From Escherichia phage IME178: DNA of 64,000 bases. Shown one piece after another: positions 1 through 5,127 of this stretch. Position 1 is the stretch's first letter. Each line of letters begins with the position of its first letter. Position numbers and translations under genes: made by a program. The stretch lies in the sequence record NC_104190.1; one strand, 5' to 3'. Below the pieces are notes generated by a model, which was not told the DNA's origin, ran no database searches, and was given only the letters and a program-made list of their open reading frames with translations.

Positions 1-393
1 CCAGATGATTATAAATGGGTTAAGCCTAATGTAATCTTCTTTGGAGAGCATGCCCCTGCATACGCAGAAATGTATAATGTTTTTGATGGTATTACCAGTC
101 AAGATATGATCATTGTGGTTGGTTGCTCTAACCAAGTAATTAACTTCTACTGGGAATTATTTCCTGTTCTTAATAGGACTGCTGCGAAATTTATGGTAGT
201 TAACTACTATGATAGTGCCCTAGCAGCAGAGCCAGGCTATCAAGGTATGACTCGTAGTGAGATGTACCAGTTGGAAGAACGCGGTGTCCCTTACTGGAGT
301 AAAGGTGCGGTAGATGCTTTCAGTGACCCTGATTTTATTGCTCGTGTAGAAGCTCATTTAGAGGGTAGACCTTATGTGTCAGGAAATAAGTAA
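1..393 (+). CDS. Sir2-family NAD-dependent deacetylase-like protein, C-terminal part (5' end lies before the window)
   Basis: Frame is open from base 1; translation PDDYKWVKPNVIFFGEHAPAY...DMIIVVGCSNQV resembles the Sir2 C-terminal region (PNV.FFGE, then hydrophobic stretch + G.S). Confidence 0.55.
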   Translation, partial: PDDYKWVKPNVIFFGEHAPAYAEMYNVFDGITSQDMIIVVGCSNQVINFYWELFPVLNRTAAKFMVVNYYDSALAAEPGYQGMTRSEMYQLEERGVPYWSKGAVDAFSDPDFIARVEAHLEGRPYVSGNK

Positions 394-886
394 TACTCCA
401 ATTATTTTTCTAGATATTGATGGGGTGCTCAATTCGAGCATCTCCCACCATCATGCACCTGATAATGAAAAGATTTTCTTTGGGAGTGACTGGGTTTTCA
501 AACCGCTTCTCAAGGCTTTTCAAGATTTTATTCGTCCTTCCTCGATAATGATTGTTGGGGTATCCTCATGGTTCTCTGTCAGGAATGAGATGGAGAACGT
601 TCAGATTATGACCGGATTAGGTCTTATCGATCGTTTTCTTGGTACAACGGATTTTACTGGGGGTGGGCTATCTAGAGGTAATTCTGTTCTCCGTTTCGTT
701 GAAAAGCATAAGCTCAAACATTGGTGTGTACTTGATGATGCGGGTGCTATGATGTATCAGTACCCAACGGTTATAGTCAACGGTAGGACTGGGATAAATC
801 TTCAGGATTTAAGAGCTGTTAGCTATATGCTAGAATTTAGCCCAGATCTTGAAATGTGTAAATCCTTACAACAATTTAAGGTGTAA
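374..886 (+). CDS. HAD-superfamily phosphatase-like protein
   Basis: 170-aa ORF with N-terminal IIFLDIDGVLN (HAD motif I, DxDG); overlaps the end of the Sir2-like gene. Confidence 0.55.
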   Translation: MCQEISNTPIIFLDIDGVLNSSISHHHAPDNEKIFFGSDWVFKPLLKAFQDFIRPSSIMIVGVSSWFSVRNEMENVQIMTGLGLIDRFLGTTDFTGGGLSRGNSVLRFVEKHKLKHWCVLDDAGAMMYQYPTVIVNGRTGINLQDLRAVSYMLEFSPDLEMCKSLQQFKV

Positions 887-898
887 ATATGTTCAATA

Positions 899-1315
899 AT
901 GTATTCTCTAAAGAAGCTAACCCAGTTTTGGTTAACTTTTGGCGTACTCTCCCAGCTAGTGTATAATGAGGCTATTAACTCTTTGAAAATATGGTGTGAG
1001 AATAACGAAATCTCCTTTGCTTTTAAAGATGATATTGATGAGGCCCCCTGTATTGGTTTAATTGTGCAGGTAGAGGATGGCCTTGAAGAGATTGTGGGCT
1101 GGAAAGAGTTAGACGAAATGGGCTTAGTTTTTGCGTTAAACTATAAGCTGTTTATGCCTGCTAAGCATCGCCTCGTTGTTAACTATAAAAATAGTGAATC
1201 TCCTGGTTTTCAGGTTAATGAACGTTATGGTTGGTCTTACTTACCGGAAGAAGTAAATGAGGGGATTCAGAAACTTCGACGTTTCGGGTATATGATCCCA
1301 GGTTTAACTGCTTAA
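899..1315 (+). CDS. hypothetical protein, tandem paralogue 1
   Basis: 138-aa ORF sharing D(E/D)(A/P)PCIG...W.EL..MGL..ALN...F and C-terminal R(F/V)G..(I/V)PGL with the next ORF. Confidence 0.55.
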   Translation: MYSLKKLTQFWLTFGVLSQLVYNEAINSLKIWCENNEISFAFKDDIDEAPCIGLIVQVEDGLEEIVGWKELDEMGLVFALNYKLFMPAKHRLVVNYKNSESPGFQVNERYGWSYLPEEVNEGIQKLRRFGYMIPGLTA

Positions 1316-1324
1316 GGAGGCAGA

Positions 1325-1714
1325 ATGGAACAAGTATACTGGCGTCAGATTGACCCTAGTTTGGTGAAGCGTGCGGAGAAGCTGCTACAACGTTGGTTGG
1401 GGGTAAGACAAGCCTCCTTCACTTTTCCTGAGCAGCAAACAGATGATCCCTGTATTGGTGTTTTCCTATCCGGCTACGCCGGGGAATGGGAGATGGACTG
1501 GAATGAATTGTCCGCTATGGGTTTAATTGTTGCCCTAAACTTCTCTATATTCCATCCACGTGGTTTGGCCATATGTCGTGTGCCTGATGACGGTTGTTCG
1601 CCCCATCTTTTACAGGTGGAAGATGATACTTGGGAGTATACTCCGGATATTCTTAAAGAAGCTAAAGAACAATTAAACCGTGTTGGGATCTATGTTCCGG
1701 GATTAAATGACTAA
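1325..1714 (+). CDS. hypothetical protein, tandem paralogue 2
   Basis: 129-aa ORF, paralogue of 899..1315; RBS GGAGG immediately upstream. Confidence 0.6.
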   Translation: MEQVYWRQIDPSLVKRAEKLLQRWLGVRQASFTFPEQQTDDPCIGVFLSGYAGEWEMDWNELSAMGLIVALNFSIFHPRGLAICRVPDDGCSPHLLQVEDDTWEYTPDILKEAKEQLNRVGIYVPGLND

Positions 1715-1808
1715 TGATTTTTATTAGCTGAACTATGATTACCGAGTCATTTTGGCTCGGTTTTATCCGTACTCAAGACCAATGATAGCACCATCCGGAA
1801 AATTTTAC

Positions 1809-1837
1809 TTGCAGGATGCCCAAAATCTTGATATAAT
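1809..1837 (+). promoter_or_regulatory. sigma70-type early promoter (TTGCAG, 17-bp spacer, TATAAT) with conserved downstream ATTGAATTGAGAGA
   Basis: Member of a repeated promoter family in this window; sits about 500 bp upstream of the likely start of the 2338..5127 gene. Confidence 0.4.
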
Positions 1838-2337
1838 ATTTATATTGAATTGAGAGACATTAGTAAAAATTGATTTTGCTAATTTTTCTTGTTTACAATC
1901 CGCGATACGGAACAGTTAGGCTGCCCCATTAAGGGTTGTTTTAACTGTTACATGTTAGTTTTTAAACAAATAGTTAATAGAATACTTAGCGATCTGCGCC
2001 CCATAGGAACCCTGGTAAGGCCTCGAAGCAACCTAGTATGAGGTGGTTGTGAAGTGAGATGGGAGGAGTGAAAAACTACCGAGACGTGATTCTGTAAGTT
2101 ATATTGCATCTAGTATGAGCTAGTATATGAAGCATTAGGTGAGCAAATCTGGCTTAGCGGCCATCCTCAAGGATTTGTGCGATATAGCAAAGCAGCAGCG
2201 CAGCGTGAAAGTGGAAGTTGCCACCCCACTTCAGTATTTGCGATTAATTTGTTGAGAAATTGACAGTAACAGTTGTTCTATTCTTTCTGAATAGTCCTAA
2301 AGAAAATTTATTTCATTTCCAACACAGGAGTATTGTT

Positions 2338-5127
2338 GTGTTCTCAATCCTACAAGGTCATGCAGGATTTCATCGCGATTTAGCCACAGGCAATTGGCGA
2401 GAAGTTAAAGCAGAAGATTATCTTTTTGCTAAAAGATTTTCCTCAAAGCATCCTGAAGGTAAACCAGCTTCAATGCCCTTCAAGTTTGATGTAATTGATG
2501 AAGTTGATCCTCAAACCCTAGTAGAAATGCTTCCTCTTATGAGACGTTTAACGTCTGACCCTCATATCGTTGCGGTACGAGGTAGATGTCTTGCACCTAA
2601 AAATAATGTGCGACGTAAGAAGGGCAACTTTAATGTATCTAACCCAAGTCATATAATTGCAATGGACGTGGATGGTATTGTGGATACAGGTGGTTGTAAC
2701 AAGTTTGATCTTGTTGGCATGGCTCGACATATTATTAGAATGTTAAATAGTATTAGTGAGGATATGTTTCCTCTTGATGCAGGGTTTATCGCTCATGCAT
2801 CGTCTTCGGCTGGGCTAAAACCAGGTATCCGAATGCACTTAATACTAGAATCTAATGTTAAAGTAACTCAGGGTCAAATCAAATTCTTATTTACATCTAT
2901 CAATGAAAGTAGTAGACAAAAGTATGGCTTTGATATTGCCGACTTAGCTTATTACTCTTCCGTACAGCTCCATTATTTTGCAGATCCGTTATTTACCGAT
3001 GGTATAGTAGATCCGTTTAAAGCGGAGGGTGCTTCACGTCTGGTATTTGTTAAAGGTTCTAAAGTAAATTTACCAAATAATCTGGTTGACTATGAAACAA
3101 CTAGAGGTGAGTTTAAGGAGGAGTTTTACTCTTTACTCGATCAAATTAAAGGTAAAAAAGCTGCCTCTGATAAAGTAGAGGAAACTATCAGCGAACTAGA
3201 AGAAGCTGAGGATGGGGTGTACTTGCGTATTATCCCCAAACTATACCATAGAGCATTAGAGGATGGTGTTGATTTTGCATGGCTAGAAAAAGAAATCCGT
3301 CCAGCCTTATCAGAATATATCGCAACTAAAGATAACAGTCGTAATATTCAAGATTACTTTAATAACGGTCGTAAACAGGCTCTGAAAGCATTTGTTAATA
3401 ATTCTAAACGCGATATACCTGATGTTTTAAAAGGTATTCCACTTAAAAAGCTAGAAACTAACTCCCTAGAAACTGATAACTTCTTGAAATTAAATACTGT
3501 GCCACCAGAAGGTTATATGACTTTTGTAAAAGCAAGTCTAGGTACAGGTAAAACCACGGCGGTTGTGCGTTGGTTAGATTCAGGAGTTATTAAAGGTAAT
3601 TTCTTAGCAATTACCAATACTAGAGCGCTGGTGTCTTCAAATGCTAAGAAATTCAGTGCAGGACAATATGATAAGTCTGTAGATATGCTTAATTTTAAGC
3701 GTGGTGCTATTGACCGTATGTCCACAACTATTCACTCTTTGCATAAGTTCAAGAGTTTTATTGGTCAAATTGATGCAATCTTTATCGATGAATGTGATGC
3801 TGTAATGAATGACCTGTTATTCGCCCCGGTTGTTAAACAACGTCGTGAGTGTATTCAGGTTCTTCGGGATATTCTTGCAACTGCAAAAATCATTATATTA
3901 TCAGATGGTGATATTAGTGCAGAAACAATTGAAGCATATGGTTCCTTGATTGAGTTTGATAAACCGGTTGCATTTTATAATCACCACCGTAAGATGTTGT
4001 CAAAAGCTCATGCTTATGAGTTCCCTGATGAATCCAGTATTTGGGTTGCACTTCAGACTTCTCTAGAGATGGGTGAGAAATCTATTCTGGTATCTGACTG
4101 TGGCCCTGATGAGCTGAATGAGAAGGGCATGGCATTACGTCGTAATACGGGTGCGTTAGTTAAGGAAATCCACTCAAACTCTACGTCTGATGTAGATATT
4201 CGACGTATTCTGGATTACACAACTAATGAGCTAATTGACCAACAAATTGATTGCTTATTATGTAGTCCATCCGTAACTAGTGGTGTTGACTTCAACTATT
4301 TTGATAACGTATTCGTTATTACTAGAACCAGCAACCAAGCGCCAAACATGCGTTTCCAAGCAATCAGGCGCGACCGTGGTGCTCAGAACATCTATTATTT
4401 TATTGATAAATCTACGAGTGGATTCTCCGCAGGTTCTGAACAATATAACATTGATGAAGGTTGGCTGGAGTTAGCACAGCAATTATACGCACGTCGCAGG
4501 GAGCTGGAATCTAGGAACTATACTAGTACTTTACGTTATTACTTGCTTGATCAGGGTGCAACTATTGATATTTTCAGTGAAAGCTGGGGAACTATCGAAG
4601 GTGCAGGCAAAGAGTATACAGAAGAGCGAATCAAAGCCATTTTGTATTCAACTCCTGATTATTGCGCTCCACGTCATGCGGATGCGTATGAAGCTAAACT
4701 ACTTCTTGTTCGCTACTATCATCTTGAGTCTATTAAAGATGTAACAGTTGAGCATGTTGAACAATATATCAAGGATAAACCGAATGATCGAGCTGCATTC
4801 TTCCATAAAATGCACGAGATGTTCTGGGAAGATATTAAGAAGTGTTCAAACGTCACTATCAAACCATTCATAGAAGCTCTGAAAGGTAAGAAGAAAGATT
4901 TCTTCCTTAAAACAGGTCAGAGTGCTAACCCAAAATATGCGAGAATGTATCTTGGTATGATGGGTATTGGTAAGGATATGAACACTGAAAATATTGTAGA
5001 CTGGTACAGAACCTATTGTAAAATCGAGTGTATGCCAATCCCATATAAGTTTATGACTGATGAGGAGAAACATATGCATGATGAAGCAATGGCAGAGCTA
5101 GGTGCTAGAAATGACAGTGAAGAATAA
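2338..5127 (+). CDS. putative primase-helicase: AEP-like primase domain fused to P-loop NTPase
   Basis: Long ORF (track 2260..5127); likely start GTG 2338 after RBS AGGAG. N-terminal IIAMDVDGI and GIRMHLIL resemble AEP primase motifs I/II; Walker A GTGKT and Walker B IFIDECD follow. Confidence 0.65.
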   Translation: MFSILQGHAGFHRDLATGNWREVKAEDYLFAKRFSSKHPEGKPASMPFKFDVIDEVDPQTLVEMLPLMRRLTSDPHIVAVRGRCLAPKNNVRRKKGNFNVSNPSHIIAMDVDGIVDTGGCNKFDLVGMARHIIRMLNSISEDMFPLDAGFIAHASSSAGLKPGIRMHLILESNVKVTQGQIKFLFTSINESSRQKYGFDIADLAYYSSVQLHYFADPLFTDGIVDPFKAEGASRLVFVKGSKVNLPNNLVDYETTRGEFKEEFYSLLDQIKGKKAASDKVEETISELEEAEDGVYLRIIPKLYHRALEDGVDFAWLEKEIRPALSEYIATKDNSRNIQDYFNNGRKQALKAFVNNSKRDIPDVLKGIPLKKLETNSLETDNFLKLNTVPPEGYMTFVKASLGTGKTTAVVRWLDSGVIKGNFLAITNTRALVSSNAKKFSAGQYDKSVDMLNFKRGAIDRMSTTIHSLHKFKSFIGQIDAIFIDECDAVMNDLLFAPVVKQRRECIQVLRDILATAKIIILSDGDISAETIEAYGSLIEFDKPVAFYNHHRKMLSKAHAYEFPDESSIWVALQTSLEMGEKSILVSDCGPDELNEKGMALRRNTGALVKEIHSNSTSDVDIRRILDYTTNELIDQQIDCLLCSPSVTSGVDFNYFDNVFVITRTSNQAPNMRFQAIRRDRGAQNIYYFIDKSTSGFSAGSEQYNIDEGWLELAQQLYARRRELESRNYTSTLRYYLLDQGATIDIFSESWGTIEGAGKEYTEERIKAILYSTPDYCAPRHADAYEAKLLLVRYYHLESIKDVTVEHVEQYIKDKPNDRAAFFHKMHEMFWEDIKKCSNVTIKPFIEALKGKKKDFFLKTGQSANPKYARMYLGMMGIGKDMNTENIVDWYRTYCKIECMPIPYKFMTDEEKHMHDEAMAELGARNDSEE

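What the first reader, a model, noticed from the sequence alone, without database searches (positions are those of the whole stretch)
1..1714. Sir2-like, HAD-like phosphatase and two tandem PCIG paralogues form a compact early module
A Sir2-family C-terminus (NAD-dependent deacetylase / ADP-ribosyltransferase fold) is followed immediately by a ~170-aa HAD-type phosphatase (IIFLDIDGVLN, similar to small HAD domains of RNA-repair proteins) and two paralogous 130-aa proteins of unknown function. Sir2 domains are NAD-consuming effectors in several bacterial defence systems, so a phage-encoded Sir2 next to a phosphatase could act in NAD/nucleotide metabolism, RNA repair or counter-defence. The N-terminus and any upstream partner are outside the window.
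Basis: inference. Interest (0 to 1): 0.5.

Follow-up and report, generated by a model that had tools for sequence, protein, structure and literature searches.

The report
T5-phage sirtuin, phosphatase, DUF7415 genes
This is the well-conserved end of an accessory operon of T5-like phages: a zinc-less sirtuin, a small HAD phosphatase and two duplicated DUF7415 proteins, all already catalogued but none functionally tested, and they look like separable add-on genes rather than one machine.

Summary
Window 1-1714 carries four tightly packed + strand genes that end at a terminator hairpin.

- **Sirtuin:** the last 130 codons of a 271-aa gene.
- **Phosphatase:** a 170-aa HAD_SAK_2 protein.
- **Paralogues:** two proteins of about 130 aa, 32% identical, each made of two DUF7415 units.

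The window is a T5-like phage (Tequintavirus). The same block is 95-98% identical in more than 200 GenBank phages, so the genes are already catalogued.

The sirtuin is CobB/Sirt5-like (class III). Its catalytic residues are invariant across seven phage lineages, but it has no zinc-binding cysteines. It does not match the defence-type SIR2 models in PADLOC. The HAD keeps all four catalytic motifs and is cap-less.

"Module" is only partly supported. The four genes are syntenic only in Demerecviridae:

- Phage Shivani has lost the sirtuin and the HAD N-terminus.
- Sugarlandvirus lacks the HAD.
- Elsewhere the three families occur apart.

One new lead: in a Vequintavirinae lineage a 38-40% identical HAD sits directly upstream of the NAD+-rebuilding genes Adps-Namat (NARP1). 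An unbiased scan of neighbours in 55 other viral loci found no recurrent partner.

DUF7415 has no solved structural analogue. It occurs fused to dNTP-metabolism enzymes or beside nrdD.

In this window the first paralogue carries a private 2-nt frameshift.

Interest is modest.

The parts
1..393 (+). 3' part (last 130 codons plus stop) of a 271-aa zinc-less, class-III (CobB/Sirt5-like) sirtuin gene. It holds the FFGE and GxS motifs and a C-terminal tail specific to the phage clade.
374..886 (+). Stand-alone, cap-less HAD_SAK_2 phosphatase of 170 aa. Its start overlaps the sirtuin stop by 20 nt and is preceded by a GAGG Shine-Dalgarno sequence.
889..966 (+). Remnant of the canonical 5' end of the first DUF7415 gene. 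ATG 889 has an AAGGTG Shine-Dalgarno sequence. A 2-nt deletion at 959/960 shifts the frame, so this reading stops at 964-966.
   Evidence: Alignment with Lindwurm and SIA3lw. The translation of 889-1315 breaks into stops from 964-966 on. The intact allele is present in 4 relatives, and the deletion allele is absent from IMG/VR.
899..1315 (+). First DUF7415 paralogue as it reads in this window (138 aa). Residues 1-21 are out-of-frame relative to relatives; from Tyr22 on the sequence is the native one. It holds two DUF7415 units.
1325..1714 (+). Second DUF7415 paralogue (129 aa) with two DUF7415 units. An AGGAGG Shine-Dalgarno sequence lies at 1314-1319.
   Evidence: AF2 model pLDDT 84.6, pTM 0.81.
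1741..1766 (+). Intrinsic-terminator-like hairpin (ACCGAGTCA-TTT-TGGCTCGGT followed by TTTAT) that closes the gene string.
   Evidence: Fold energy -13.3 kcal/mol, z -2.7. A terminator is annotated at the equivalent place in Lindwurm.

Best explanation
The region is the distal half of a Demerecviridae-specific accessory operon. In relatives the order is nrdD, three small ORFs, sirtuin, HAD, DUF7415a, DUF7415b, terminator. Its products most likely act separately on host and phage metabolism rather than as one machine.

1. **Sirtuin.** It is an active NAD+-dependent lysine deacylase of class III. It would bind NAD+ through GAGxS/TxNVD, use His113 as the general base, and use Tyr58/Arg61 (YxxR) to accept acetyl or acidic acyl (succinyl/malonyl) lysines. 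The products would be nicotinamide plus O-acyl-ADP-ribose. The usual Cys4 zinc knuckle is replaced by a cysteine-free hairpin.
2. **HAD.** It is an Mg2+-dependent phosphomonoesterase with Asp14 as nucleophile and Asp16 as general acid. Because it has no cap, it probably acts on a bulky or polymer-borne phosphate. The best guess is a phosphorylated ribose or ADP-ribose-type NAD+ derivative, or a 2'/3'-phosphate nucleic-acid end.
3. **DUF7415 proteins.** Each is a fused pair of a small (about 55 aa) phage-only alpha/beta domain. Because this domain turns up fused to dNTP-metabolism enzymes and next to nrdD/nrdG, it most likely serves as a binding or adaptor module for nucleotide-metabolism proteins.

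**Shown:** gene structure, family membership, conserved catalytic residues, distribution and separability.
**Inferred:** every activity, substrate and target.
For: **Identity and packing**
- T5-like identity and conserved block: 526 phage records match, and 219 of them cover at least 80% of the query. Gene order is seen.

**Sirtuin**
- Pfam SIR2 at 87.6 bits.
- Best solved relatives are E. coli CobB (2e-17) and Sirt5.
- GAG, FR, FYNxRR, TxNVD, HG, FFxE and the motif Gly182 are invariant across seven phage lineages at 39-64% identity.
- There is no cysteine where CobB has its four.
- No PADLOC hit.

**HAD**

**DUF7415**
- Each half hits PF24187 at 5e-16 to 6e-20.
- 158 representative clusters match.
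- Fusions to dATP/dGTP pyrophosphohydrolase, thymidylate kinase and DUF3850/ASCH are seen, and lie on real contigs.
- A stand-alone copy lies between nrdD and nrdG in T4-like Klebsiella phages.

**Separability**
- Shivani lacks the sirtuin and the HAD N-terminus but keeps both DUF7415 genes.
- Sugarlandvirus has the sirtuin and two DUF7415 genes but no HAD.
- Five non-Demerecviridae sirtuin loci, and more than 60 non-Demerecviridae HAD loci, carry none of the other families nearby.
- The block diverges far faster than the flanking nrdD: 61-88% against 97.9% identity.
Against: - No activity has been measured for any of the four proteins.
- Translational coupling of the sirtuin and HAD, and retention of the order across three genera, could mean real cooperation.
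- The sirtuin scores far below NCBIfam CobB equivalog cut-offs (100 against 243 bits) and lacks the zinc site. Its chemistry could therefore differ (ADP-ribosyl transfer or NAD+ hydrolysis).
- 'Early' timing is taken from general knowledge of the T5 map, not tested here.
Confidence: 0.5

Rival explanations
1. NAD+-centred counter-defence pair. The HAD is a non-Macro analogue of the phage phosphatase Adpp. It would strip a phosphate from defence-generated ADP-ribose phosphates (ADPR-1''P from RES-type enzymes, or 2'-phospho-ADPR from NADP+ cleavage). Together with the sirtuin it would manage the NAD+/ADPR pool that T5 needs, for example for its NAD+-dependent DNA ligase.
For: - HAD homologues 38-40% identical to the window protein lie directly upstream of Adps (Prs-like) and Namat (Nampt-like) in Serratia phage ChuuTotoro and Acinetobacter phage ABPH49, overlapping Adps by 4 nt. 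In a 152-kb metagenomic phage contig a 116-aa ORF lies between the HAD and Adps.
- That Namat is 40% identical to the Namat of Bas63/JohannRWettstein, the phage in which NARP1 was discovered.
- Genes inserted in NARP1 operons have twice been shown to be 'feeder' enzymes: Macro Adpp (10.64898/2026.01.28.702374) and RyDEP (10.64898/2026.05.28.727677).
- In T5-like phages the same HAD is translationally coupled to an NAD+-consuming enzyme.
- Nampt- or Prs-like genes lie within 8 kb of 4 of 55 distant viral HAD loci.
Against: - The NARP1 association comes from one lineage (3 GenBank records at 80% identity or more).
- An unbiased Pfam scan of 150 immediate neighbours of 55 distant HAD loci shows no NAD-related partner.
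- The window holds no Adps or Namat, so dephosphorylated ADPR could not be rebuilt into NAD+ by the phage itself.
- A sirtuin consumes NAD+ and does not make a phosphorylated product.
- The Adpp paper does not mention HAD proteins.
Confidence: 0.2
2. RNA (tRNA) end-healing. The HAD would remove 2'/3'-phosphates from RNA cut by host anticodon nucleases. The sirtuin would take part in NAD+-dependent processing, and a host ligase (for example RtcB) would seal the break.
For: - The Pfam family is defined on RNA-repair 'Swiss Army Knife' proteins.
- In Vequintavirus APECc02 the orthologous sirtuin is preceded by an Rnl1-type RNA ligase and a cREC_REC cyclic-phosphate-processing domain.
- cREC_REC (2), PTH2 (2) and an Rnl1 gene occur near a few distant HAD loci, and an RNA_ligase gene lies 4 kb from one more.
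Against: - No RNA ligase, cREC or kinase is found in the 64-kb window.
- Rnl1 homologues are found in only 18 Salmonella phage records, against about 270 T5-like Salmonella phages.
- No sirtuin is known to act on RNA ends.
- T5-like phages carry their own large tRNA sets, an alternative answer to tRNA cleavage (general knowledge).
Confidence: 0.08
3. A pair of 'erasers' for protein modifications. The sirtuin would strip acyl-lysines and the cap-less HAD would strip phospho-groups from the same host proteins, resetting host regulation early in infection.
For: - The sirtuin has an intact deacylase site.
- The two genes are translationally coupled.
Against: - No shared target is known.
- The HAD occurs without any sirtuin in every non-Demerecviridae locus examined.
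Confidence: 0.1
4. The sirtuin is not a deacylase. It would be an NAD+ glycohydrolase or ADP-ribosyltransferase used for host shut-off or to modify a defence protein.
For: - The zinc module that helps form the peptide-binding cleft is missing.
- Scores are far below the CobB equivalog cut-offs.
- The gene evolves fast relative to its neighbours (61% against 97.9% for nrdD).
Against: - The acyl-lysine-related YxxR and FFGE elements are invariant.
- There is no similarity to defence SIR2 models.
- T5-like phages use an NAD+-dependent ligase (annotated), so wholesale NAD+ destruction would hurt the phage.
Confidence: 0.07

Closest known systems
E. coli CobB / human Sirt5 (class III sirtuins, Pfam PF02146)
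   Same: - Rossmann NAD+-binding core with the GAGxS, TQN(I/V)D-like, HG and FGE motifs.
- The class-III YxxR pair is present.
- These are the best sequence matches among solved structures.
   Different: - No Cys4 zinc-binding module.
- An extra C-terminal tail of about 60-85 aa, conserved only among phage sirtuins.
- Scores are far below the CobB equivalog cut-offs.
- The gene is phage-encoded.
Zinc-less sirtuins of KVP40-like Vibrio phages (PMC5107563)
   Same: - Same phage sirtuin clade (39% identity to the ValKK3 protein).
- The absence of the zinc ligands has already been described, and that paper lists T5 as carrying a homologue.
   Different: - Different neighbourhood: no HAD or DUF7415 nearby.
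- KVP40-like phages also carry NAD+ salvage genes.
Pfam HAD_SAK_2 (HAD domain of 'Swiss Army Knife' RNA-repair proteins)
   Same: - Full-length match to the model (positions 1-138 of 139).
- All HAD motifs are present.
   Different: - It is a stand-alone 170-aa protein, not a domain of a multi-domain repair enzyme.
- No ligase or kinase partner is found in the window.
Adpp, the Macro-domain ADPR-1''P phosphatase of extended NARP1 operons (bioRxiv 10.64898/2026.01.28.702374)
   Same: - A phosphatase gene embedded in, or next to, NAD+-handling phage genes.
- HAD homologues occupy a comparable position next to Adps-Namat in one Vequintavirinae lineage.
   Different: - Unrelated fold (HAD, not Macro).
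- No Adps or Namat in this window.
- The substrate is unknown.
MDP-1 and Scp1/Fcp1 cap-less HAD phosphatases
   Same: - Cap-less (C0) architecture.
   Different: - Only 13-15% identity.
- These are eukaryotic proteins that act on protein substrates.
- No evidence of a shared substrate.
Pfam DUF7415 (PF24187)
   Same: - Both paralogues match it, each twice.
- Structural matches in BFVD are only other DUF7415 proteins.
   Different: - Here the domain is duplicated within each gene and the gene itself is duplicated, giving four units.
- Elsewhere it is single, or fused to dNTP-metabolism enzymes.

Membership tests
Sirtuin (Pfam SIR2, PF02146) | Profile match above the curated cut-off | tested here: met
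   The window fragment scores 25.0 bits against a cut-off of 24. The full-length orthologue scores 87.6 bits.
Sirtuin (Pfam SIR2, PF02146) | NAD+-binding GAGxS and TQN(I/V)D motifs and the catalytic His | tested here: met
   These residues lie upstream of the window, so they were checked in orthologues. S8-G9-A10-G11, N90/T92/N94/V95/D97 and H113-G114 are invariant in 7 phage lineages and align to CobB.
Sirtuin (Pfam SIR2, PF02146) | Cys4 zinc-binding small domain | tested here: not met
   There is no Cys in the segment aligned to CobB's C...CHCC. No Cys is conserved in that region across phage sirtuins. The same absence is reported for KVP40-like phages.
Class III sirtuin (CobB/Sirt5) | YxxR acidic-acyl recognition pair | tested here: met
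   In F57-Y58-N59-x-R61-R62, all five named residues are invariant. The segment aligns to CobB FYNARRR.
CobB equivalog (NCBIfam NF040867 / NF001753) | Score above the curated equivalog or subfamily cut-off | tested here: not met
   89.5 bits against 320, and 100.4 bits against 243.
Sirtuin | NAD+-dependent deacylase activity | not testable with these tools
   Needs an enzyme assay.
Defence-type SIR2 NADase (Thoeris ThsA, DSR, SIR2-HerA and similar) | Match to a PADLOC defence SIR2 model | tested here: not met
   There is no SIR2 model hit. The only hit is a chance-level REase_I match, E 0.059.
HAD superfamily / HAD_SAK_2 (PF18143) | Profile match above the cut-off | tested here: met
   72.7 bits against a cut-off of 27.5, covering profile positions 1-138 of 139.
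HAD superfamily / HAD_SAK_2 (PF18143) | Four catalytic motifs (DxDx[TV]; S/T; K/R; DD) | tested here: met
   D14, D16, S64, S65, R101 and D121 are invariant, and D122 is at least 90% conserved, in 25 homologues down to 28% identity.
HAD superfamily / HAD_SAK_2 (PF18143) | Rossmannoid HAD fold without a cap domain | tested here: met
   [not shown]
'Swiss Army Knife' RNA-repair protein | HAD fused to, or next to, RNA ligase, kinase or cyclic-phosphodiesterase domains | tested here: not met
   It is a stand-alone ORF. No Rnl1 or cREC homologue is found in the 64-kb window, and Rnl1 is rare in T5-like phages.
NARP1 / NARP1-AP NAD+ reconstitution pathway | Adps and Namat genes present | tested here: not met
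   tblastn of ChuuTotoro Adps and Namat against the window finds nothing. They are present next to HAD homologues only in the ChuuTotoro lineage.
NARP1 / NARP1-AP NAD+ reconstitution pathway | Associated phosphatase is a Macro (Poa1p-like) domain acting on ADPR-1''P | tested here: not met
   The protein here has a HAD fold. Its activity on ADPR-1''P cannot be tested with these tools.
DUF7415 (PF24187) | Profile match above the cut-off | tested here: met
   101.9 and 109.7 bits against a cut-off of 27. The N- and C-halves each score 53-72 bits alone. My own N-half versus C-half profile comparison was not significant, so the internal duplication rests on the Pfam model.
Phage tail tube protein (name given to these ORFs in several GenBank records) | Tail-tube fold | tested here: not met
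   [not shown]

The most novel reading that the evidence does not exclude
HAD_SAK_2 proteins would be a second, non-Macro class of phage phosphatases. They would convert defence-generated phosphorylated ADP-ribose species back into usable ADPR/NAD+ precursors. In T5-like phages this phosphatase would be paired with a zinc-less sirtuin as a previously unrecognised NAD+-centred anti-defence unit. The DUF7415 proteins would be further players that bind nucleotide-pool enzymes.
Probability: 0.15. Interest if true: 0.7.

Novelty: already known. Interest (0 to 1): 0.33.

Why it matters
Phage-encoded sirtuins occur in about a thousand sequenced phages, yet none has a demonstrated role. NAD+ is now known to be a central battleground between phages and bacterial immunity.

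If the HAD turns out to handle ADP-ribose phosphates, it would add a new enzyme class to the phage NAD+-rescue toolkit. It would also give a reason why T5-like phages, which depend on an NAD+-dependent ligase, keep an NAD+-consuming enzyme next to it.

As it stands, the finding mainly tidies up annotation:
- The sirtuin is CobB-type, not defence-type.
- The 'Sir2 (x2)' and 'tail tube protein' labels on the neighbouring genes are wrong.
- The four genes should not be assumed to be one system.

Tried and rejected
- **Non-coding RNA.** An Rfam scan of 1-3000 at E up to 1 found nothing. No tRNA genes are found in the window.
- **Defence models.** A PADLOC scan of all four proteins gave no meaningful hit.
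- **HAD against PDB by sequence.** No hit even at E 10, so fold search was needed.
- **Internal duplication of DUF7415.** My own HMM built from single-domain members, and an hhalign of the N-half against the C-half, were weak or not significant. The Pfam model does match both halves strongly.
- **DUF7415 near the sirtuin in other phages.** The Vequintavirus 'nucleotide pyrophosphohydrolase' next to the sirtuin has no DUF7415.
- **General partner of the HAD.** A Pfam scan of 150 neighbours of 55 distant viral loci found no recurrent family. The NARP1 link is therefore lineage-restricted.
- **The 2-nt deletion allele.** It was not found in IMG/VR or in four relatives.
- **Literature.** No paper mentions DUF7415 or HAD_SAK_2. 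The Burroughs & Aravind 2016 RNA-repair paper (PMC5062991) is not held, so what I say about 'Swiss Army Knife' proteins rests on the Pfam name and my own knowledge.
- **Promoters.** The promoter scan is at chance level, so the transcription start of the operon is not established.
Full report
**What is there.** Window 1-2300 matches 526 phage records by megablast, and in 219 of them one match covers at least 80% of the query. The best is Salmonella phage TUMS_E3 at 97.8%, and nearly all are Tequintavirus or other Demerecviridae. The window is therefore part of a T5-like phage genome. On the + strand there are four ORFs:
- 1-393, open from the window edge
- 374-886
- 899-1315
- 1325-1714

The first two overlap by 20 nt and the others are separated by 2-12 nt. 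A 9-bp hairpin followed by a T-run at 1741-1766 closes the string. A terminator is annotated at the same place in phage Lindwurm. In relatives the gene order is nrdD, terminator, three small ORFs, Sir2-like, HAD, two ORFs of about 130 aa, terminator, a long gap, then the replication-origin-binding/primase gene.

**The sirtuin.** The 130-aa fragment only just passes Pfam SIR2 (25.0 bits against 24). However, it hits phrog_2162 at 3e-45 and is 96% identical to the C-terminal 130 residues of the 271-aa Lindwurm protein. That protein scores 87.6 bits on Pfam SIR2. Its best solved relatives are E. coli CobB (2e-17), archaeal Sir2 proteins and human Sirt5.

I aligned seven phage sirtuins from Tequintavirus, Sugarlandvirus, two Vequintavirinae, Grimontviridae, Stephanstirmvirinae and a KVP40-like Vibrio phage, which are 39-64% identical. 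The following are invariant:
- the NAD+ loop (SGAG...SG..FR)
- the class-III FYNxRR element (Y58, R61)
- TxNVD
- the catalytic H113-G114
- FFxE and the motif Gly182 (the following Ser is not invariant)

This looks like an enzyme under selection for catalysis. It has no cysteines where CobB has its zinc ligands, and none are conserved there in the phage clade. The zinc-less state was already described for KVP40-like phage sirtuins, in a paper that also lists T5 as a carrier (PMC5107563). The protein is well below the NCBIfam CobB equivalog cut-offs and matches no PADLOC defence model.

**The HAD.** The 170-aa protein matches Pfam HAD_SAK_2 end to end (E 5e-20). In 25 homologues down to 28% identity:
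- motif I is FLDIDGVLN, with D14 and D16
- motif II is GVSSWF
- motif III is R101-G102
- in motif IV, D121 is invariant and D122 is at least 90% conserved

**The paralogues.** They are 32% identical over 108 aa (E 8e-18), and both match DUF7415. The N-half and C-half of each protein match the 53-position Pfam model separately, at 5e-16 to 6e-20. Each gene therefore carries two units, four in all. My own profile comparison of the halves was not significant, so the duplication rests on the Pfam model.

An exhaustive profile search found 158 representative clusters. The conserved core corresponds to the C-terminal unit. It occurs in three forms:
- as proteins of about 80 aa
- as the double form seen here
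- fused to dATP/dGTP pyrophosphohydrolase, thymidylate kinase, DUF3850/ASCH and unannotated domains, on real contigs

**Is it a module?** Only within Demerecviridae.
- All 19 close IMG/VR loci have sirtuin, HAD and two DUF7415 genes in order.
- Sugarlandvirus has the sirtuin and both DUF7415 genes, but a 54-aa ORF in place of the HAD.
- Phage Shivani carries a deletion that removes the sirtuin and the catalytic N-terminus of the HAD while keeping both DUF7415 genes.
- Sirtuin homologues occur in 1006 phage records, HAD homologues in 499 and DUF7415 in 893, with clearly different taxon profiles.
- None of five non-Demerecviridae sirtuin loci, or of more than 60 non-Demerecviridae HAD loci, carries another member of the trio nearby.
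- Between Lindwurm and Epseptimavirus S116, nrdD is 97.9% identical, but the sirtuin is 61%, the HAD 88% and the DUF7415 genes 73-74%.

These are dispensable, fast-changing accessory genes that happen to share an operon.

**Context leads.** Two neighbourhoods elsewhere are informative.

First, HAD homologues 38-40% identical to the window protein lie directly upstream of a Prs-like and a Nampt-like gene. This is seen in Serratia phage ChuuTotoro, in Acinetobacter phage ABPH49 and in a 152-kb metagenomic phage. In the first two the HAD overlaps the Prs-like gene by 4 nt. This gene pair is the NARP1 NAD+ reconstitution pathway (Adps plus Namat; bioRxiv 10.1101/2024.02.11.579819). The ChuuTotoro Namat is 40% identical to that of Bas63/JohannRWettstein, where NARP1 was found. 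Extra genes in NARP1 operons have been shown to be feeder enzymes: a Macro-domain ADPR-1''P phosphatase and a cADPR glycosidase. No HAD is mentioned in the Adpp paper.

Second, in Vequintavirus APECc02 the sirtuin follows an Rnl1-type RNA ligase and a cREC_REC domain.

Both leads are narrow. The NARP1-linked HAD type is present in only three GenBank records. A Pfam scan of 150 neighbours of 55 distant viral HAD loci found no recurrent partner: NinB 4, cREC_REC 2, PTH2 2. The window has no Adps, Namat, Rnl1 or cREC, and Rnl1 is rare in T5-like phages.

**Interpretation.** The best-supported reading is three independent accessory functions.
- The sirtuin is an NAD+-dependent class-III lysine deacylase.
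- The HAD is a cap-less phosphomonoesterase. Its substrate is most plausibly a phosphorylated ribose or ADP-ribose derivative, or a nucleic-acid phosphate end.
- The double DUF7415 proteins probably bind or adapt nucleotide-metabolism enzymes.

All activities are inferred. The NAD+-centred counter-defence pairing is the most interesting alternative, at about 0.2. RNA repair, a modification-eraser pair and a non-deacylase sirtuin are less likely.

**Novelty and score.** The same genes are present and annotated in hundreds of T5-like genomes, and the T5 Sir2-like gene is cited to the 2005 T5 genome paper in the literature read here. The families are in Pfam and PHROGs, and the zinc-less phage sirtuin has been described. 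I therefore rate the finding as already known, with untested function, and of modest interest. The HAD-NARP1 association is the one new, testable lead.

Noticed in passing
window 955-966: The first DUF7415 gene has a 2-nt deletion (GCTAGCCTGT to GCTAGTGT) relative to four Tequintavirus relatives. The canonical ATG 889, which has a good Shine-Dalgarno sequence, now stops at 964-966. The 899 ORF has 21 out-of-frame N-terminal residues and no obvious Shine-Dalgarno sequence. The allele is absent from IMG/VR. It is either a real inactivating or start-shifting mutation, or a sequencing error.
   Followed up: yes
window 1767-2338: An unusually long non-coding gap (about 570 nt) lies before the D5-like 'replication origin binding protein' (GTG 2339). 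It has a few short repeats and no Rfam hit. In relatives an HNH homing endonuclease is inserted here (Shivani, L011:4791-5243), which explains the two-piece megablast matches.
   Followed up: partly
window 608-886 (HAD residues 79-170): phrog_18062 is labelled 'Sir2 (NAD-dependent deacetylase)' but corresponds to the C-terminal 92 aa of the HAD (E 5e-58). This probably explains the 'Sir2 (x2)' annotations on the HAD gene in many GenBank T5-like genomes.
   Followed up: partly
L021:1874-2083, L022:3830-4012, L010:4818-4982: A small ORF of 54-69 aa with the motif HPDDI..W(P/A)(D/N)GSWCYR..SDDY lies between the sirtuin and the HAD in TUMS_E3 and S116, and in place of the HAD in Sugarlandvirus. 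It is absent from this window and from Lindwurm.
   Followed up: no
L002 versus L022 (Lindwurm versus Salmonella phage S116): Divergence is mosaic. nrdD is 97.9% identical at the protein level, but the adjacent sirtuin is 61%, the HAD 88% and the DUF7415 genes 73-74%. The accessory block is being exchanged, or is evolving, much faster than its core neighbour.
   Followed up: yes
L012:5001-8217, L013:5001-8222, L016:4001-7569: A HAD_SAK_2 gene lies directly upstream of Adps (Prs-like) and Namat (Nampt-like) in a Vequintavirinae lineage (ChuuTotoro, ABPH49 and a JGI contig). It is a candidate three-gene NARP1 variant with a HAD in place of the published Macro phosphatase.
   Followed up: partly
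L003:2728-4762 (Escherichia phage APECc02): In Vequintavirus the orthologous sirtuin is the third gene of a string made of an Rnl1-type RNA ligase, a cREC_REC cyclic-phosphate-processing domain and the sirtuin. An ATP-dependent DNA ligase follows 1.3 kb downstream.
   Followed up: partly
L007:3495-3713 (Klebsiella phage KP179): A stand-alone 72-aa DUF7415 gene is wedged between nrdD and nrdG in T4-like Jiaodavirus/Slopekvirus phages. This echoes the position of the DUF7415 pair downstream of nrdD in T5-like phages.
   Followed up: partly
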